Assembly (NCBI GenBank): GCA_903937405.1 | Contig: CAIZZE010000032.1 | Coordinates: 1 to 58,102 of the forward strand | Reading direction: 5' to 3' | Origin: an uncultured Alphaproteobacteria bacterium | GTDB taxonomy: Bacteria > Pseudomonadota > Alphaproteobacteria > Rickettsiales > UBA1997 | Length of the DNA: 58,102 nt | Part shown: positions 48,836 through 58,101 of the stretch, in pieces | How the letters are laid out: the number at the start of each line of letters is the position of its first letter | Position numbering within the stretch: position 1 is the stretch's first letter | The notes under the pieces: model-generated | What the model was told of the DNA's origin: nothing | Database searches by the model: none | Seen by the model: the letters and a program-made list of their open reading frames with translations, nothing else | Program-made: the position numbers and the translations under genes

Positions 48836-48839
48836 GATT

Positions 48840-49508
48840 ATGAAAAACGACAATAACATAAAACACAAAAATAGAGTTGCCAATCACGGCGAGGTTTTCA
48901 CTTCCAAAAGAGAAGTGGAAGCAATGCTAAATTTGGTGGATCAAGAAACTGTAAGAATTGACTCAAGATTTTTAGAGCCCGCTTGTGGAGATGGAAATTT
49001 TTTGGCAAAAATCTTGGAAAGAAAGTTGGGAGTGGTTGTAAAGCAATATCAAAAAAATCAAATTGAATTTGAAAGATATGCTCTAATTGCCGCTTCTTCA
49101 ATTTATGGAATTGATATTTTAGAAGACAATGTTGATGAATGTCGCCAAAGATTATTGCTAATATTCAGCCAAGTTTATTGCTCAATTTACAAAAACCAAG
49201 TCAGCCAAGTTTATCTTGAAAATATCAAATTTGTCTTTTCAAAAAATATTCTGTGGGGCGATGCTTTGAGTTTGAAAAAAGTTGACAACAACCAACCAAT
49301 CACCTTTTGCGAATGGTCGGCGGTTAATGGCTCAATGATTAAAAGAAAAGATTATCAATTTTCAGATTTGCTTGCCTATAAAGATTTTGACGAACCAAGC
49401 CTTTTTTCTGTCGGGCTTTTTTCTGATTTAGGTGAAGAAGTTTTAATTGCTAAAGCCAAAAAGGAATATCCTTTAACTCATTTTATGGAATTAAATAAAT
49501 ATGATTGA
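48840..49508 (+). CDS. DNA methyltransferase-like protein, SAM-binding half only
   Basis: HGEVFT, FLEPACGDGNFL, IYGIDI, ILWGDAL; no (N/D/S)PP(Y/F) motif in 222 aa. Confidence 0.8.
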   Translation: MKNDNNIKHKNRVANHGEVFTSKREVEAMLNLVDQETVRIDSRFLEPACGDGNFLAKILERKLGVVVKQYQKNQIEFERYALIAASSIYGIDILEDNVDECRQRLLLIFSQVYCSIYKNQVSQVYLENIKFVFSKNILWGDALSLKKVDNNQPITFCEWSAVNGSMIKRKDYQFSDLLAYKDFDEPSLFSVGLFSDLGEEVLIAKAKKEYPLTHFMELNKYD

Positions 49509-51021
49509 TTCCAGCAATAACTATAATCCTGATGTTCTCACTTGCCTTGCCAATCTTAGTAATGACGAGGTTTTTACTCCGCCAAAATTAGCTAATCAAA
49601 TTTTAGATAATCTTCCCAAAGAAATTTGGAGTGATAAAAATATCAAATTTTTAGACCCAGTTGCAAAATCGGGAGTTTTTTTAAGAGAAATTACCAAAAG
49701 ATTAATTACTGGCTTAGAAAGCCAAATTCCTGATTTGCAAACCAGAATTAATCATATTTTAGCCAATCAAGTTTTTGGAATTGCCATTACCGAAATTACC
49801 GCTCTTATTTCAAGAAGAACGCTTTATTGTGCCAAAAAAGCCAATGGCAAATATTCAATTTCTAGCGATTTTGCTGATGAAATTGGCAATATTAAATTTG
49901 ATCAAACCAATCACAGTTGGAAAAATGACAAATGCATTTTTTGTGGCGCAGGCAAGCTGGCATATGATCGATGCGAAGAACTTGAAACCCACGCCTATCA
50001 ATTTATTCACCACAACAACCCTGAAAAAATATTTAATATGAAATTTGATGTAATTATTGGCAATCCTCCTTATCAAATGAGCGATGGCGGATTTGGCAAA
50101 AGCGCCAAACCAATTTATCACAAATTTATTGAGCAAGCTAAAAAATTAAATCCGCGATTTTTGTCAATGATCATTCCTGCAAGATGGTATAACGGTGGAA
50201 AAGGCTTAGATGAATTTAGAGATGAAATGTTAAATGATAAAAAAATTTCTAAAATTCATGATTTTCCAAATACTAGCGATTGTTTTGCGGGTTTAAATAT
50301 TAGAGGTGGAGTGTGTTATTTTCTGTGGGAAAGAGATCACAAAGGTGATTGTGAAATTATTACTCACAAACAAAACGAAATCATATCTTCAATGAAAAGA
50401 CCACTTTTAGAAAAAGGTTTTAATATCTTCATCAGATATAATGAGGCGATTCAAATTCTTCACAAAGTTCAAAAGTTTAAAGAACAATCTTTTAGCAATA
50501 TTGTGAGTGCAAGAAAACCATTTGGCTTGGCAACAAATTTTGCTGATTTTTCAAAACAAAAAACTACCAAAGATCAAATTCTGCTTTATAGATTTGGTGA
50601 TAATGGTTTTGTGGATGAAAAACAGGTTCAAAGCAATCATAGTTGGATTAAGATGTGGAAAGTAATATTGCCATATGCAAGCCCAGGCGATGATAGCTAT
50701 CCTCATTTAATTTTAAGCAAACCAATAATTTCTGCTCCCAATTCTTGCTCAACCGAAACCTATATTGTTGTAGGGCCTTTTCAAAATGAGGGCAAAAGCA
50801 AAAATGTTGCCAAATATATGCTCACTTCTTTTTTTAGATTTATGGTTTTGCTGGCAAAAAGCACTCAACACATTACCAAGAAAACATATATTTTTGCCCC
50901 AATGCAAGATTTTCAAGAAGAATGGGATGATGAAAAATTATATAAAAAATATGGCATCAATGAGGAAGAAATAAATTTTATCAATAGCTTAATTAGGCCA
51001 ATCGAGAAGCATTATGACTAA
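49501..51021 (+). CDS. Gamma-class amino-MTase (Eco57I-like) with target recognition region
   Basis: DEVFTPP, FLDPVAKSGVFL, FDVIIGNPPY, MIIPARW. Confidence 0.88.
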   Translation: MIDSSNNYNPDVLTCLANLSNDEVFTPPKLANQILDNLPKEIWSDKNIKFLDPVAKSGVFLREITKRLITGLESQIPDLQTRINHILANQVFGIAITEITALISRRTLYCAKKANGKYSISSDFADEIGNIKFDQTNHSWKNDKCIFCGAGKLAYDRCEELETHAYQFIHHNNPEKIFNMKFDVIIGNPPYQMSDGGFGKSAKPIYHKFIEQAKKLNPRFLSMIIPARWYNGGKGLDEFRDEMLNDKKISKIHDFPNTSDCFAGLNIRGGVCYFLWERDHKGDCEIITHKQNEIISSMKRPLLEKGFNIFIRYNEAIQILHKVQKFKEQSFSNIVSARKPFGLATNFADFSKQKTTKDQILLYRFGDNGFVDEKQVQSNHSWIKMWKVILPYASPGDDSYPHLILSKPIISAPNSCSTETYIVVGPFQNEGKSKNVAKYMLTSFFRFMVLLAKSTQHITKKTYIFAPMQDFQEEWDDEKLYKKYGINEEEINFINSLIRPIEKHYD

Positions 51022-53527
51022 AAACCAATTCTTCCCAAAGCGCCCCAACCCCAATCCAACGATTTATGCTTATGAATTGCCAAAAGAAGAAACCAGAAAA
51101 GGGTTGTTGAAAATTGGTTTTACAGATCGCGATGCCAAAATCAGAATTGCTGAACAGCTAAAAACCAGTGGCATTGCTTATAAAATTGTTTTTGAGAGCT
51201 GTGCTGTAAAAAATAATGGCGATTATTTTACTGATCGCGAAATTCATAAAATTTTGCGCAAAAAAGGCTTTAAAAACCCTGATGGTGAGTGGTTTGAATG
51301 CAGGCTTGAAGATTTGCAAATTGTTGTGAATGGCATCAAAAATAATCAAGAATTTGCCACAGAAAGAAGTTTGGATTTTGCGATGCGACCAGAGCAAAAA
51401 GATGCGGTGGAGCGAACTTCTCAATATTTCTTAAAGTCAAAACAAGAAAATTCAAAAAAACCGTCTCATTTTTTGTGGAATGCTAAAATGCGTTTTGGCA
51501 AAACTTTTACCACCTATCAATTAGCAAAAAAAATGGGTTGGAAAAAGATTTTGGTTTTAACCTTCAAGCCCGCAGTGCAAAACGCTTGGCAAGAAGATTT
51601 GGAAAGTCATATTGATTTTGAAAATTGGCAATTTATTGCCAAAAACAATGACTTAAAAAAAGTTGATTATTCAAAGCCGCTTGTTTGCTTTGGCTCTTTT
51701 CAAGATTATTTAGGCAAAAATTCTGCTGGCGGAATTAAGGCAAAAAATGAGTGGGTTCATTCCACCAATTGGGATTGCGTGGTTTTTGACGAATATCATT
51801 ATGGAGCTTGGCGAGAAAACGCCAAAGACCTTTTTGAATCGGAAGATTTGGAAGAACAAAGATTTGCTGAAGGTGAAGGTTTGGAATTTTTTGATGATAA
51901 AAATGGAAAAAATAATATTGATGAAGGTTTGATGCCAATAACTACCAGCCATTTTTTATATTTATCGGGAACGCCATTTAGAGCCATTTCTTCAGGAGAA
52001 TTTATTGAAGAGCAAATTTTCAATTGGACTTATAGCGATGAGCAAAGAGCTAAAGAAAACTGGCAAGGCAAAAATAACCCTTATTTGTCGCTGCCAAGAA
52101 TGGTTATTTTAACCTATCAAATGCCTGATTCTATTAAAGAAATTGCTCAAGGCGGTGAATTTAATGAATTTGATTTGAATGTTTTTTTCCAGGCAAAAGG
52201 GAAATTTGAAAATGCTAAATTTGTTTATGAAAATGAAGTGCAAAAATGGCTGGATTTGATTCGCGGATCTTTTTTAGAAACTCAAATTGATAATTTGAAA
52301 CAAGGAGCAAAAAAACCTTTAATGCCGTTTTCTGAAGCTAGATTATTAGAAATTTTAACTCACACATTTTGGTTTTTGCCCAGCGTTTCGTCTTGTTATG
52401 CGATGAAAAATATTTTGAGCAAAAGACAAAATATTTTTTATCATAATTATAAAATCATTGTTGCAGCAGGAAAAGAAGCTGGAATTGGCGCTGAAGCATT
52501 AAAGCCAGTTATTGAGGCAATGGAAAACCCGCTTCAAACCAAAACCATCACTCTTTCTTGTGGAAAATTAACCACGGGCGTTTCTGTTAAACCTTGGAGC
52601 GGAATTTTTATGCTTAGAAATTCTTCCAGCCCAGAAACCTATTTTCAAGCGGCATTTAGAGTGCAAACGCCTTGGCAGATCAAAAATCCTGATGATAAGT
52701 CGCCAAACAAAATCGAAATTATCAAAGAAGAATGTTATGTTTTTGATTTTGCACCAAATCGAGCGCTTCGCCAAATTGCGGATTACGGCTGTCGCCTGAA
52801 TATTGATGAGAATAATCCTGAAAAGAAAGTTGAGGAATTTATCAATTTTCTGCCAATTTTGGCTTATGATGGAAGCTCTACAAAGCAAATTAATGCCGCT
52901 GAAATATTAGATATCGCCTTTAGCGGAACCACGGCAACTTTGCTTGCCAGAAGATGGGAGAGTGCACTTTTGGTTAATGTTGATAATGCAACTTTGTCAA
53001 GATTGATGGCGAGTGAAAAAGCCATGAATGCGTTGATGAGCATTGAAGGTTTTAGAACTCTAAACCAAGATATTGAAACAATTATTAATAAATCTGAATC
53101 AATTAAAAAAATTAAAAAAGAAGCAAATGAAAGAGATTTGAGCCCTAAAGAAAAAAAAGAATTATCGGATGAAGAAAAAGAATTTAAATCGAAAAGAAAA
53201 CAAATTCAGGAAAAACTGATTAAATTTTCGACTAGAATTCCTGTTTTTATGTATTTGACTGATTATCGGGAAAGAAATCTTAAAGATGTTATTATGCAAC
53301 TTGAGCCACAACTTTTTAAAAAAGTAACTGGATTGAATGTTGGTGATTTTGATTTATTGGTAAGTCTTGGAGTTTTTAACGATTCCTTAATGAATGATGC
53401 GGTTTGTAAATTTAAAAAATATGAGGATAAAAGCCTTTCATATGCTGGCTTGTGGAGGCATAAAGATGAGGATATTGGGTTATTTAACACCACTATTTCA
53501 AGCCAAGAATTTATTGAGAATTTATAA
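51014..53527 (+). CDS. GIY-YIG/T5orf172-like nuclease fused to SF2 helicase
   Basis: IYAY..LKIGFT..RI..IH..GEWF N-terminal domain; NAKMRFGKT, FDEYH, LSGTP, YFQAAFRVQT. Confidence 0.85.
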   Translation: MTKNQFFPKRPNPNPTIYAYELPKEETRKGLLKIGFTDRDAKIRIAEQLKTSGIAYKIVFESCAVKNNGDYFTDREIHKILRKKGFKNPDGEWFECRLEDLQIVVNGIKNNQEFATERSLDFAMRPEQKDAVERTSQYFLKSKQENSKKPSHFLWNAKMRFGKTFTTYQLAKKMGWKKILVLTFKPAVQNAWQEDLESHIDFENWQFIAKNNDLKKVDYSKPLVCFGSFQDYLGKNSAGGIKAKNEWVHSTNWDCVVFDEYHYGAWRENAKDLFESEDLEEQRFAEGEGLEFFDDKNGKNNIDEGLMPITTSHFLYLSGTPFRAISSGEFIEEQIFNWTYSDEQRAKENWQGKNNPYLSLPRMVILTYQMPDSIKEIAQGGEFNEFDLNVFFQAKGKFENAKFVYENEVQKWLDLIRGSFLETQIDNLKQGAKKPLMPFSEARLLEILTHTFWFLPSVSSCYAMKNILSKRQNIFYHNYKIIVAAGKEAGIGAEALKPVIEAMENPLQTKTITLSCGKLTTGVSVKPWSGIFMLRNSSSPETYFQAAFRVQTPWQIKNPDDKSPNKIEIIKEECYVFDFAPNRALRQIADYGCRLNIDENNPEKKVEEFINFLPILAYDGSSTKQINAAEILDIAFSGTTATLLARRWESALLVNVDNATLSRLMASEKAMNALMSIEGFRTLNQDIETIINKSESIKKIKKEANERDLSPKEKKELSDEEKEFKSKRKQIQEKLIKFSTRIPVFMYLTDYRERNLKDVIMQLEPQLFKKVTGLNVGDFDLLVSLGVFNDSLMNDAVCKFKKYEDKSLSYAGLWRHKDEDIGLFNTTISSQEFIENL

Positions 53528-53575
53528 GAAAAAATTACGATAGATAATACAATACCAAATCCCATCTTTAATTAA

Positions 53576-57213: not shown

Positions 57214-58101
57214 CTAGTTGGTATAGCGGATAAGAACAATACCGCTGCCGCCAATACCACTGTTGGCGCCACCGCCGGTGTTATTCATGGCTGCTGCAGG
57301 TGTTGTGTTATTGCCTGTTCCATTGGCACCACCACCGGCACTCGCAGTTCCGCCAGCTCCACCGTTTGCAATTTTTCCGCTCCCACCTCCACCGCTGGCA
57401 AACCAACCGTTATGTCCGAAATTGGTTGAGAAGATGCTACTGTAATTTACACTTGGACCACCATTCCCTCCGGTATATGAGCCAGCTGGATTACTTCCTG
57501 CGCCAGCACCACCAACACCCCAACCAGCACCACCACCAGCTACTACCAGAACTTTTGCTGTCAAGTTTTTAGTACGGGTAAGTGTTGCGCTGCCGGAAGT
57601 AAAGGCGTGAATAACATCTCCGGTATAGGCAGTTGTATTAATTATGTTGCCACCGGTACAAGACAGGATGATACAGTTATTGACCAAATTACTCAAAGAA
57701 CCACCAGAGCAGGTATAAGTAATAGACCCGCTGGCGCCACTAGCATTACAGGATAAAGTCGTTGAATTAGCATTAACTTTGGTTCCATTTATGATTCCAC
57801 TTACCCCAGTTATTGTACATTGCAAGCCACATCCTCCACTTCCATCTGAAGCATAACCATTCGCAGTATCACATGTTGAACATCCATCACCAGTATATCC
57901 AGTTGCACATGAGCATGTTCCCGTGATTGAGGTTCCGCCGGAACAAGTATAAGCATAGCCGCTACTTGAGTAATGACTTCCGGTGTTGCAATTTATTATT
58001 CCTGATCCCGATGATACTGTTCCTGTGCTTGGGCTTCCTCCAGTTACTGTGTAACTACAATTCGAAATACATACTCCGCCCGATAAAGAATATCCAGCTC
58101 C
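57214..58101 (-). CDS. Cys-rich EGF/laminin-like protein with Gly-rich C-terminal domain (5' truncated by window)
   Basis: The frame stays open from 57825 to the window edge: ...YTCSGGTSITGTCSCATGYTGDGCSTCDTANGY...; C-terminal VLVVAGGGAG...GGSGIVLIRY. Confidence 0.85.
   Translation of the reverse strand, partial: GAGYSLSGGVCISNCSYTVTGGSPSTGTVSSGSGIINCNTGSHYSSSGYAYTCSGGTSITGTCSCATGYTGDGCSTCDTANGYASDGSGGCGLQCTITGVSGIINGTKVNANSTTLSCNASGASGSITYTCSGGSLSNLVNNCIILSCTGGNIINTTAYTGDVIHAFTSGSATLTRTKNLTAKVLVVAGGGAGWGVGGAGAGSNPAGSYTGGNGGPSVNYSSIFSTNFGHNGWFASGGGGSGKIANGGAGGTASAGGGANGTGNNTTPAAAMNNTGGGANSGIGGSGIVLIRYTN

What the first reader, a model, noticed from the sequence alone, without database searches (positions are those of the whole stretch)
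48840..51021. Complementary motif loss suggests a two-subunit methyltransferase
Seen: gene 1 has canonical SAM-binding motifs (FLEPACGDGNFL, YGIDI, GDAL) but no catalytic motif. Gene 2 has catalytic GNPPY but a degenerate motif I (FLDPVAKSGVFL) and Ala at the usual acidic ribose-binding position of motif II (FGIAI versus GIDI/GVEI). Gene 2 also has an insert with possible Zn ligands (C...H.W...CIFC). Both begin with an EVFT motif X, so this is not one frameshifted gene. Inference: the small protein may supply or sense SAM for the catalytic subunit, or act as a cofactor-sensing regulator of the nuclease.
Basis: partly seen in the sequence, partly recalled or inferred. Interest (0 to 1): 0.78.

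Follow-up and report, generated by a model that had tools for sequence, protein, structure and literature searches.

The report
DrdVI-type split methylase restriction cassette
The two genes are the small and large methylase subunits of an intact copy of a widespread, already catalogued restriction-modification system (the DrdVI family), and the complementary loss of motifs is a family-wide trait that suggests, but does not prove, that the small protein supplies the cofactor-binding half of the enzyme.

Summary
Gene 1 (48840-49508, 222 aa) keeps motifs X, I, II and III of a gamma-class adenine methylase and has no catalytic motif. Gene 2 (49501-51021, 506 aa) keeps NPPY, but has Lys at the first Gly of motif I, Ala at the acidic position of motif II, and a conserved Cys/His insert. 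The pattern is family-wide: 0 of 143 gene-1 homologues have a (D/N/S)PP(Y/F/W) motif, and 133 of 133 gene-2 homologues have NPPY with the altered motifs.

With gene 3 (51014-53527, T5orf172/GIY-YIG-like nuclease plus SF2 helicase) they form a three-gene cassette homologous to M1.DrdVI, M2.DrdVI and DrdVI on plasmid pDrdVI (41, 47 and 54% identity). M1 and M2 cloned together methylate GCAGCC (PMC6430315), and the family is called "split methylase/RM genes" (PMC10113651). So it is a new member of a known kind, and this scan has met it before on other DNA.

New here: single-chain relatives join a gene-1-like half directly to the gene-2 catalytic half, without gene 2's own degenerate half. None of the three bacterial loci examined has an intact nuclease gene. 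A gene-1-like gene accompanied every gene-2-type methylase whose upstream DNA I could read. This favours gene 1 as the working SAM-binding lobe. It is untested.

The parts
48840..49508 (+). Gene 1 = M1-type subunit, 222 aa. It is the N-terminal SAM-binding lobe of a gamma-class N6-adenine methylase, followed by a conserved hairpin and tail. It has no catalytic motif.
   Evidence: ORF. Pfam MmeI_Mtase only 21.1 bits, below the cutoff of 27. More than 8000 homologues of about 215-230 aa. 41% identical to the pDrdVI 212-aa protein. The model aligns to the N part of the methylase domains of MmeI (Z 8.9), CamA (8.8) and BrxX (8.3).
48891..48902 (+). Gene 1 motif X (EVFT, residues 18-21)
   Evidence: Sequence. 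E18, V19, F20 and T21 are invariant in 23 of 23 aligned homologues.
48969..49004 (+). Gene 1 motif I (FLEPACGDGNFL, residues 44-55)
   Evidence: F44 to G50 and G52 to F54 are invariant in 23 of 23. EPACGxGNF is in 136 of 143 homologous ORFs.
49104..49118 (+). Gene 1 motif II (YGIDI, residues 89-93, acidic D92)
   Evidence: Y89, G90 and D92 are invariant in 23 of 23. Y-[GA]-x-[DE] is in 143 of 143.
49257..49268 (+). Gene 1 motif III (GDAL, residues 140-143)
   Evidence: G140, D141, A142 and L143 are invariant in 23 of 23.
49501..51021 (+). Gene 2 = M2-type subunit, 506 aa. It is an Eco57I-family gamma-class N6-adenine methylase with NPPY, a C-terminal target-recognition part, and a degenerate N-terminal lobe of its own.
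   Evidence: Pfam Eco57I 1.6e-40. PADLOC MTase_II PDLC03375 3.7e-68 on residues 180-498. 47% identical to the pDrdVI 539-aa protein. The model matches CamA at E 1.4e-15, and also BrxX, M.BseCI, MmeI and M.TaqI.
49648..49683 (+). Gene 2 variant motif I (FLDPVAKSGVFL, residues 50-61, with K56 in place of the first Gly)
49774..49788 (+). Gene 2 variant motif II (FGIAI, residues 92-96, with A95 in place of the acidic residue)
49828..49944 (+). Gene 2 insert with candidate metal ligands C110, H138, C145 and C148
   Evidence: H138, W140, C145 and C148 are invariant and C110 is at least 90% conserved in 33 sequences. The pattern is in 119 of 133. The model is of low confidence here, pLDDT about 50-68, so the fold is not known.
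50059..50073 (+). Gene 2 catalytic motif IV (GNPPY, residues 187-191)
   Evidence: NPPY is in 133 of 133 homologues.
51014..53527 (+). Gene 3 = restriction subunit, 837 aa. It has an N-terminal T5orf172 (GIY-YIG-like) domain and an SF2 (ResIII) helicase-like motor.
   Evidence: Pfam T5orf172 4.1e-9 (residues 17-108) and ResIII 1.7e-7 (residues 122-273). PADLOC REase_MTase_IIG PDLC03626 3.5e-32. 54% identical to the pDrdVI 851-aa protein.
48836..53575 (.). Extent of the inserted cassette, between tatB and a convergent 271-aa gene
   Evidence: In 4 of 6 same-genus loci examined, tatB is followed directly by the homologue of the 271-aa gene. A gene-1 homologue was found in only 2 of 41 genomes searched, own genome included.

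Best explanation
Genes 1, 2 and 3 are an intact, horizontally acquired copy of the DrdVI family of ATP-dependent restriction-modification systems. Gene 1 corresponds to M1, gene 2 to M2, and gene 3 to the nuclease-translocase.

M2 recognises a short asymmetric DNA site through its C-terminal part and carries the catalytic NPPY loop. M1 is an obligatory partner that carries the only canonical SAM pocket. Together they form the adenine-N6 methylase.

My preferred mechanism is that M1's lobe takes, in trans, the place next to M2's catalytic half that the N-terminal lobe occupies in ordinary single-chain methylases. M2's own degenerate lobe, with its Cys/His insert, would then serve coupling to, or control of, the nuclease-motor rather than cofactor binding.

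Shown: homology to DrdVI, the family-wide motif pattern, the co-occurrence of the genes, and the existence of single-chain forms. Taken from papers: M1 and M2 cloned together methylate. Inferred: that M1 is required, that it provides the catalytic SAM site, and the role of M2's own lobe.
For: (1) Homology and synteny with pDrdVI: 41, 47 and 54% identity for the three proteins, in the same gene order.

(2) Papers (passages read). [quoted passage not shown] (3) The complementary motifs hold across the family and in remote relatives. All 12 small upstream proteins examined, DrdVI M1 among them, match the gene-1 profile. 12 of 12 keep the motif II acid, 9 of 12 keep G-x-G, and 0 of 12 have a motif IV. 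Their large partners carry S/T/C-K-x-G wherever the motif could be read.

(4) Co-occurrence. A gene-1 homologue lies upstream of gene 2 in 121 of 122 loci with at least 800 nt of upstream DNA. The one exception is an ORF-calling artefact.

(5) Of 120 longer relatives of gene 1, 83 are single chains that join a gene-1-like lobe (39-60% identity) to the gene-2 catalytic half (36-65%), without gene 2's own lobe. P0134 is an example. In 26 aligned examples, FLEPACGxGNF and NPPYQ are invariant.

(6) On a tree of the lobe these single chains are not one clade: 7 changes by parsimony, and supported branches force at least 2.

(7) Orphan methylase modules without a nuclease keep a gene-1-like part. 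Three bacterial single-chain loci have no intact gene 3 and no remnant of gene 2's lobe. Phage FNU4 has an M1-like part fused to the catalytic half. Phages PTm1 and PTm5 have an M1-like gene beside the methylase domain only.
Against: - No text I could search reports M1 or M2 expressed alone, so the requirement for M1 is not shown.
- The AlphaFold model of gene 2 alone folds its own lobe and the catalytic half into a complete CamA-like methylase (TMq 0.57). That leaves no empty place for M1.
- Gene 2's lobe keeps motif X and the Asp of L-D-P, and it is more conserved than the rest of the protein. It may still bind SAM in an unusual way.
- The single-chain form reported in Bibersteinia is fragmented and inactive (PMC4996451), so some single chains may be decay products.
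- Only three bacterial single-chain loci and one phage locus were examined. Niastella still carries a 111-aa remnant of gene 3.
- In PTm1 the methylase gene is split by a frameshift at a run of A.
- The 80 genome loci were found through gene 1 itself, which biases the co-occurrence count. The metagenome and plasmid sets were not found that way.
Confidence: 0.6

Rival explanations
1. M2 is a self-sufficient methylase that binds SAM through a non-canonical pocket, for example with K56 and E98 taking the place of the usual residues. M1 is a SAM-binding accessory, acting as a sensor or adaptor. It would tune the nuclease-motor or hold the complex together, and would not contribute to the catalytic site.
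For: The model of gene 2 is a complete methylase fold without M1. Gene 2's lobe keeps motif X and L-D-P and is highly conserved. An Asp/Glu three residues after the lost acid (G-I-A-I-T-E) is common, with GIAITE in 75 and GLAITE in 18 of 133. M1-like lobes are also found fused to other effectors: to the helicase in place of the nuclease domain (P0145) and to an OLD-type ATPase-TOPRIM protein (P0172). This fits a portable sensor or adaptor module. From recall: SAM stimulates or is required for cleavage in several Type I, III and IIG enzymes.
Against: It does not explain why single chains repeatedly replace gene 2's lobe with the gene-1-like lobe and keep its SAM motifs invariant. It does not explain why nuclease-less phage modules keep an M1-like part. 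The near-universal acidic residue of motif II is missing in all 124 gene-2 homologues that the pattern matched.
Confidence: 0.27
2. M1 is an active enzyme in its own right, with a non-canonical catalytic loop such as the conserved N-G-S-M at residues 163-166, and modifies a different base, strand or substrate.
For: N163, G164, S165 and M166 are conserved at 90-100%. They follow motif III at roughly the spacing where motif IV lies in compact methylases. REBASE-style naming gives it an M1 name.
Against: About 50 residues remain after this loop. That is too few for strands 5-7 of the fold or for a DNA-recognition domain. The single chains that keep this hairpin still need the NPPY half downstream. 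Only one m6A motif is assigned to the M1-2 clones.
Confidence: 0.04
3. Gene 1 is a decaying fragment of a duplicated methylase gene, or genes 1 and 2 are one gene broken by a frameshift.
For: Gene 1 looks like the first third of a methylase. About 15 of the 120 longer relatives are in-frame gene 1-gene 2 fusions. Cassettes do decay by internal deletion (L050, L062, L066, L072).
Against: Gene 1 homologues are a uniform 215-230 aa at about 57% identity across many phyla and in an archaeon, with dozens of invariant residues including the tail. Each gene has its own motifs X, I and II. The start and stop overlap is kept. Homologous ORFs are intact in 143 gene-1-like and 133 gene-2-like cases.
Confidence: 0.02

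Closest known systems
DrdVI system of Deinococcus wulumuqiensis NEB 479, plasmid pDrdVI (M1.DrdVI, M2.DrdVI, DrdVI), and MaeIV of Methanococcus aeolicus
   Same: Same three genes in the same order. The proteins are 41, 47 and 54% identical. M2.DrdVI has the same C-T-K-S-G, G-I-G-I and C/H insert, and M1.DrdVI has the same FLEPACGSGNFL and YGIEL. The papers describe M1 and M2 cloned together, an m6A mark on a short asymmetric motif, and a nuclease that is 'a fused translocase and REase' with a GIY-YIG domain.
   Different: The recognition sequence of the window's system is unknown, and the C-terminal part of gene 2 diverges. The window's copy sits on the chromosome between tatB and a housekeeping gene, not on a plasmid. 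The papers I read do not describe the complementary motif degeneration or test the subunits separately. I could not see their supplements.
Type ISP restriction-modification enzymes (LlaGI, LlaBIII)
   Same: Both combine a nuclease, an SF2 helicase-like motor, a gamma-class N6A methylase and a recognition domain acting on an asymmetric site. The gene 1 model aligns to the methylase domain of LlaBIII (Z 6.5, residues 869-1009) and of LlaGI (Z 6.3). Fused relatives of genes 3 and 2 exist as single proteins of 1320-1460 aa.
   Different: From recall, Type ISP enzymes are single polypeptides with an Mrr/PD-(D/E)xK nuclease and no separate M1. Here the nuclease domain is T5orf172/GIY-YIG-like, the proteins are separate, and even the fused relatives keep a small M1-like gene upstream.
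DnmA (YeeA)-YeeB-YeeC clusters of Bacillus subtilis and Vibrio crassostreae
   Same: An adenine methylase is linked to an SF2 helicase-like protein and a T5orf172-domain protein in one operon (PMC9973331, passages read).
   Different: There the methylase is MmeI-like and a single protein, the helicase and T5orf172 parts are separate proteins, and no half-methylase partner is described.
Naturally or artificially split DNA methylases (M.AquI and M.EcoHK31I alpha/beta subunits, recalled; split M.SssI and M.HhaI fragments, seen in the listing only)
   Same: Two polypeptides that each carry part of the methylase motifs assemble into one active enzyme.
   Different: Those are C5-cytosine enzymes cut into two non-redundant pieces. 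Here the large subunit still has a complete fold with a degenerate copy of the lobe that the small subunit carries.

Membership tests
DrdVI-type restriction-modification system (REBASE M1/M2/R) | Three genes in the order: small M1-like gene, Eco57I-type M2, GIY-YIG/T5orf172 plus helicase R | tested here: met
   compared with the pDrdVI annotation.
DrdVI-type restriction-modification system (REBASE M1/M2/R) | Sequence homology of all three proteins to the pDrdVI proteins | tested here: met
   blastp: 41% (E 4e-50), 47% (E 0) and 54% (E 0), each nearly full length.
DrdVI-type restriction-modification system (REBASE M1/M2/R) | M1 plus M2 give m6A at a short asymmetric site | not testable with these tools
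   Known only for DrdVI (GCAGCC) and MaeIV (GCACY), from papers.
DrdVI-type restriction-modification system (REBASE M1/M2/R) | NTP-dependent cleavage by the R subunit | not testable with these tools
   Only the domains are seen. I found no biochemical report.
Gamma-class N6-adenine DNA methylase, Eco57I family (gene 2) | Pfam PF07669 above its cutoff, and motif order X-I-II-...-IV with NPPY | tested here: met
   139.4 bits against a cutoff of 25.3. NPPY at residues 188-191. Fold match to CamA, BrxX and M.TaqI.
Gamma-class N6-adenine DNA methylase, Eco57I family (gene 2) | Canonical SAM pocket: G-x-G in motif I and an acidic residue at the end of strand 2 (motif II) | tested here: not met
   K56 and A95 align to the Gly and the Asp of BrxX. 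The same holds in the homologues.
DNA methylase (gene 1 as an enzyme) | Catalytic motif IV, (D/N/S)PP(Y/F/W) | tested here: not met
   Absent in gene 1 and in 143 of 143 homologous ORFs.
DNA methylase (gene 1 as an enzyme) | Pfam methylase domain above its cutoff | tested here: not met
   MmeI_Mtase 21.1 bits against a cutoff of 27, covering profile positions 20-120 of 259 only.
Type ISP restriction-modification enzymes | A single polypeptide with an Mrr-type nuclease, a motor, a methylase and a recognition domain | tested here: not met
   There are three separate ORFs, and the nuclease domain is T5orf172. The definition itself is recalled.
Type III restriction-modification | Beta-class Mod methylase (motif IV before motif I) with a PD-(D/E)xK Res subunit | tested here: not met
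   In gene 2, motifs X and I precede motif IV (gamma order). Res-like gene 3 has T5orf172. The definition is recalled.

The most novel reading that the evidence does not exclude
The catalytic half of M2 can pair with either of two homologous lobes. With its own SAM-blind lobe (K-S-G, no acidic residue, Cys/His insert) it would form a DNA-recognising but methylation-dead state that serves the nuclease-motor. With the SAM-loaded lobe of M1 it would form the active methylase. The choice between restriction and modification would then be set by a lobe exchange that reads SAM availability. If so, the system could respond to phage SAM-degrading enzymes.
Probability: 0.1. Interest if true: 0.8.

Novelty: new member of a known kind. 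Interest (0 to 1): 0.45.

Why it matters
The family is very common. At least 596 species genomes across many bacterial phyla, an archaeon and candidate-phyla bacteria hold a relative. It is also on plasmids of lactic acid bacteria and enterococci and in phages. Yet I found no paper that says how its two methylase-like proteins divide the work.

If the small protein really supplies the cofactor-binding lobe while the large one keeps a dead copy, this would be a natural half-domain complementation in an adenine methylase. It would also be a candidate point of control between modification and restriction.

In practice, methylome studies and cloning work need to know that both genes must be moved together. 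Annotation pipelines call the small gene a stand-alone 'DNA methyltransferase' or 'N-6 DNA methylase', which it very probably is not.

Tried and rejected
- **Complex prediction.** Gene 2 plus SAM plus gene 1 gave no verdict (score 0.00, mark 0.32, controls not run). It counts neither for nor against binding.
- **Sequence search against solved structures.** The single proteins gave nothing significant. A weak hit of the gene 2 insert to a zinc-knuckle protein (AIR2, E 0.11) is below any threshold and is only a hint.
- **Foldseek on the gene 1 model.** No match at E <= 0.001. The VIA second look gave Z 8-9 to the N part of methylase domains.
- **A 'true split' in phage PTm1.** I first read it as a 344-aa catalytic half plus a separate M1-like gene. 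I rejected this after tblastn with a fused relative found the degenerate lobe just upstream in another frame, with the shift at a run of A.
- **Pseudogene or frameshift reading of gene 1.** Rejected on conservation.
- **Boundary repeats and promoter or terminator scans around the insertion.** Nothing above chance.
- **Literature searches.** 'T5orf172 + methyltransferase + helicase + defense system', 'split methyltransferase / restriction-modification / SAM-binding', 'DrdVI' and 'split methylase/methyltransferase/MTase' turned up no paper that tests M1 and M2 separately. Supplements were closed and may hold clone details.
- It failed on a format rule (it needs a G handle) and was redone as the tool advised.
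Full report
**What is at the coordinates.** Three same-strand ORFs overlap by 8 nt each:
- Gene 1, 48840-49508, 222 aa.
- Gene 2, 49501-51021, 506 aa.
- Gene 3, 51014-53527, 837 aa.

Gene 1 scores only a sub-threshold match to the first part of a methylase domain: MmeI_Mtase 21.1 bits against a cutoff of 27, on profile positions 20-120 of 259. Gene 2 is an Eco57I-family methylase (1.6e-40). Gene 3 has a T5orf172 (GIY-YIG-like) domain followed by a ResIII-type helicase domain. PADLOC files gene 2 under type II methylases and genes 2 and 3 together under one fused type IIG model of 1359 positions.

- Gene 1 has EVFT, FLEPACGDGNFL, YGIDI and GDAL, and no (D/N/S)PP(Y/F/W).
- Gene 2 has EVFT, FLDPVAKSGVFL, FGIAI, C110...H138-x-W...C145-x-x-C148 and GNPPY.
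- A profile of 33 gene-2 homologues aligned to the solved BrxX/PglX methylase puts K56 on the first Gly of its G-S-G and A95 on the Asp of G-L-D-I-D.
- The two proteins are barely alignable to each other, at 20% over the N-terminal lobes. They are two paralogous lobes, not one broken gene.

**The pattern is a family trait.**
- Gene 1 belongs to a very large and uniform family. The 120 listed are 214-296 aa long and mostly 56-60% identical, although they come from many phyla.
- In 23 aligned members the SAM-pocket residues (E46, G50, G52, N53, F54, D92, D141), a hairpin (P153...W159...G164...R169) and the tail (P211, H214, F215) are invariant.
- In the best 80 of those loci and in 80 metagenome loci, the counts are as follows:

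| Set | n | Result |
|---|---|---|
| Gene-1-like ORFs | 143 | EPACGxGNF in 136; Y-[GA]-x-[DE] in 143; motif-IV-like tetrapeptide in 0 |
| Full gene-2-like ORFs | 133 | NPPY in 133; Lys at the first-Gly position in all 129 the pattern matched; no acidic residue at the motif II position in any of 124 matched; Cys/His pattern in 119 |

- A gene-1 homologue lies upstream of gene 2 in 121 of 122 loci with room for it. The exception, L202, is an over-extended ORF call, and gene 1 is there.
- An intact gene 3 follows in 31 of 34 loci with at least 4.5 kb of downstream DNA. Two more have fragments and one has none.
- The 80 genome loci were retrieved through gene 1, which biases the first count. The metagenome set was retrieved with patterns from both halves.

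**It is a catalogued system.**
- Plasmid pDrdVI of Deinococcus wulumuqiensis NEB 479 carries a 212-aa 'DNA methyltransferase', a 539-aa Eco57I-domain protein and an 851-aa helicase-family protein in this order.
- They are 41, 47 and 54% identical to genes 1, 2 and 3, and show the same motif variants.
[quoted passage not shown] - The Bibersteinia paper describes DrdVI as 'a fused translocase and REase' with a GIY-YIG domain. [quoted passage not shown]
- None of these passages tests the subunits apart. Four literature searches found no paper that does. Supplements were closed.

**New comparative evidence on the mechanism.** The 120 listed longer relatives of gene 1 fall into four classes:

| Class | Count |
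|---|---|
| Single chain: gene-1-like lobe + gene-2 catalytic half, without gene 2's own lobe | 83 |
| In-frame gene 1-gene 2 fusion | 15 |
| Gene-1-like lobe joined to part of the gene 3 helicase | 10 |
| Other | 12 |

- P0134 from Niastella populi is a single chain. It is 55% identical to gene 1 over residues 1-171 and, by the domain pieces, 65% identical to the gene 2 catalytic half from MKFDVI-GNPPYQ to the end.
- In 26 aligned single chains, FLEPACGxGNF and NPPYQ are invariant at 48% mean column identity.
- I built a tree of the lobe with 28 two-gene and 26 single-chain rows. Every second of 60 paired loci was used, and 4 of those dropped out because the motif pattern failed. The single chains need 7 changes by parsimony, and supported branches force at least 2. 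DrdVI M1 is nested among single chains.
- The three bacterial single-chain loci I could reach (Niastella L135, L153, L162) have housekeeping neighbours and no intact gene 3. No remnant of gene 2's lobe is present in any frame. Niastella keeps a 111-aa remnant of gene 3.

**More remote relatives tell the same story.**
- Three-gene sets occur in Mycobacteroides, Variovorax and Legionella plasmids.
- Two-gene sets, in which nuclease, motor and methylase are one protein of 1320-1460 aa, occur in Lactococcus, Enterococcus, Pediococcus, Lysinibacillus and Paenisporosarcina plasmids and in two Bacteroidota genomes.
- All of them have a small gene directly upstream.
- All 12 small proteins tested match the gene-1 profile, with E from 2.6e-61 to 2.2e-5, and none has a motif IV. 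The motif II acid is kept in 12 of 12 and G-x-G in 9 of 12. hhalign gives 92% probability for one of the most distant.
- Their large partners carry S/T/C-K-x-G where the motif could be read.

**Phages.**
- One phage record holds the whole cassette.
- Phage FNU4 has an M1-like part fused straight to the catalytic half.
- Phages PTm1 and PTm5 keep an M1-like gene and only the methylase domain of a fused relative, with no nuclease or motor. That methylase gene is interrupted by a frameshift at a run of A.

**Reading.** The lobe carried by gene 1 is kept wherever the catalytic half is kept. It can stand in the place of gene 2's own lobe, and it holds the only canonical SAM pocket. Gene 2's lobe is missing from the single-chain forms, which lacked an intact nuclease gene in the loci I could examine. 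The simplest account is that M1 is the working cofactor lobe of a two-subunit methylase, and that M2's own lobe, with its Cys/His insert, serves the link to the nuclease-motor.

**Evidence against this reading.**
- The model of gene 2 alone is a complete CamA-like fold (pLDDT 80, Foldseek E 1.4e-15).
- Gene 2's lobe is strongly conserved, including motif X and L-D-P.
- The sample of single-chain neighbourhoods is small.
- The gene 1 model (pLDDT 77) is the N part of a methylase domain plus a hairpin and a tail. Without coordinates I could not say what covers its open sheet edge.

**Context.**
- A gene-1 homologue was found in 2 of 41 genomes searched: the window's own and one same-order genome at 49% identity. 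Two further weak hits lie in 690- and 321-aa frames.
- In 4 of 6 same-genus loci, tatB is followed directly by the convergent 271-aa gene that here lies after gene 3. So 48836-53575 is an insertion of the bare cassette.
- There is no integrase, no clear boundary repeat, and no promoter or terminator signal above chance. G+C is slightly lower than in the flanks.

**Verdict.** This is a new member of a known, catalogued kind that the scan has already met on other DNA. What remains open and worth a simple experiment is the division of labour between M1 and M2.

Noticed in passing
window 48836-53575: The cassette is inserted precisely between tatB and a convergent 271-aa gene. These two genes abut in 4 of 6 same-genus loci examined. 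Gene 1 starts 4 nt after the tatB stop, so it may be read through from tatB.
   Followed up: partly
L119:6370-7449 (+); gaps of 0.7-1.5 kb between genes 2 and 3 in many loci: A YhcG/DUF1016 PD-(D/E)xK nuclease gene sits between the methylase gene and the nuclease-helicase gene in one relative (Pfam 3.2e-57). Similar gaps in other loci may hold the same kind of passenger.
   Followed up: partly
protein P0172 (835 aa): An OLD-type AAA ATPase plus TOPRIM protein carries a gene-1-like lobe at its C-terminus (residues 621-783, 51% identity). The half-methylase module is therefore also attached to a different kind of defence-type effector.
   Followed up: no
protein P0145 (1090 aa): A gene-1-like lobe replaces the T5orf172 nuclease domain at the N-terminus of a gene-3-type helicase. 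The same protein ends in a PcrA/UvrD Tudor domain.
   Followed up: no
window 49404-49418 (gene 1 residues 189-193): The window's gene 1 has five extra residues (FSVGL or LFSVG, a local duplication of LFS) in the low-confidence loop before the tail. All 22 aligned homologues lack them.
   Followed up: no
L231:3149-4541 (Tenacibaculum phages PTm1 and PTm5): The phage methylase gene is split by a one-base shift at a run of A, so the annotated 344-aa ORF starts exactly at the catalytic strand. This could be a sequencing error, a phase-variable tract or a dead gene.
   Followed up: partly
L050, L062, L066, L072: Several relatives are internal-deletion remnants. In L066, for example, the N-terminal part of gene 2 is fused to the C-terminal end of gene 3. 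The cassette often decays by deletion.
   Followed up: no
window 57214-58101 (-): A Gly/Ser/Thr/Cys-rich repetitive ORF runs off the end of the window. It looks like a surface or secreted repeat protein.
   Followed up: no
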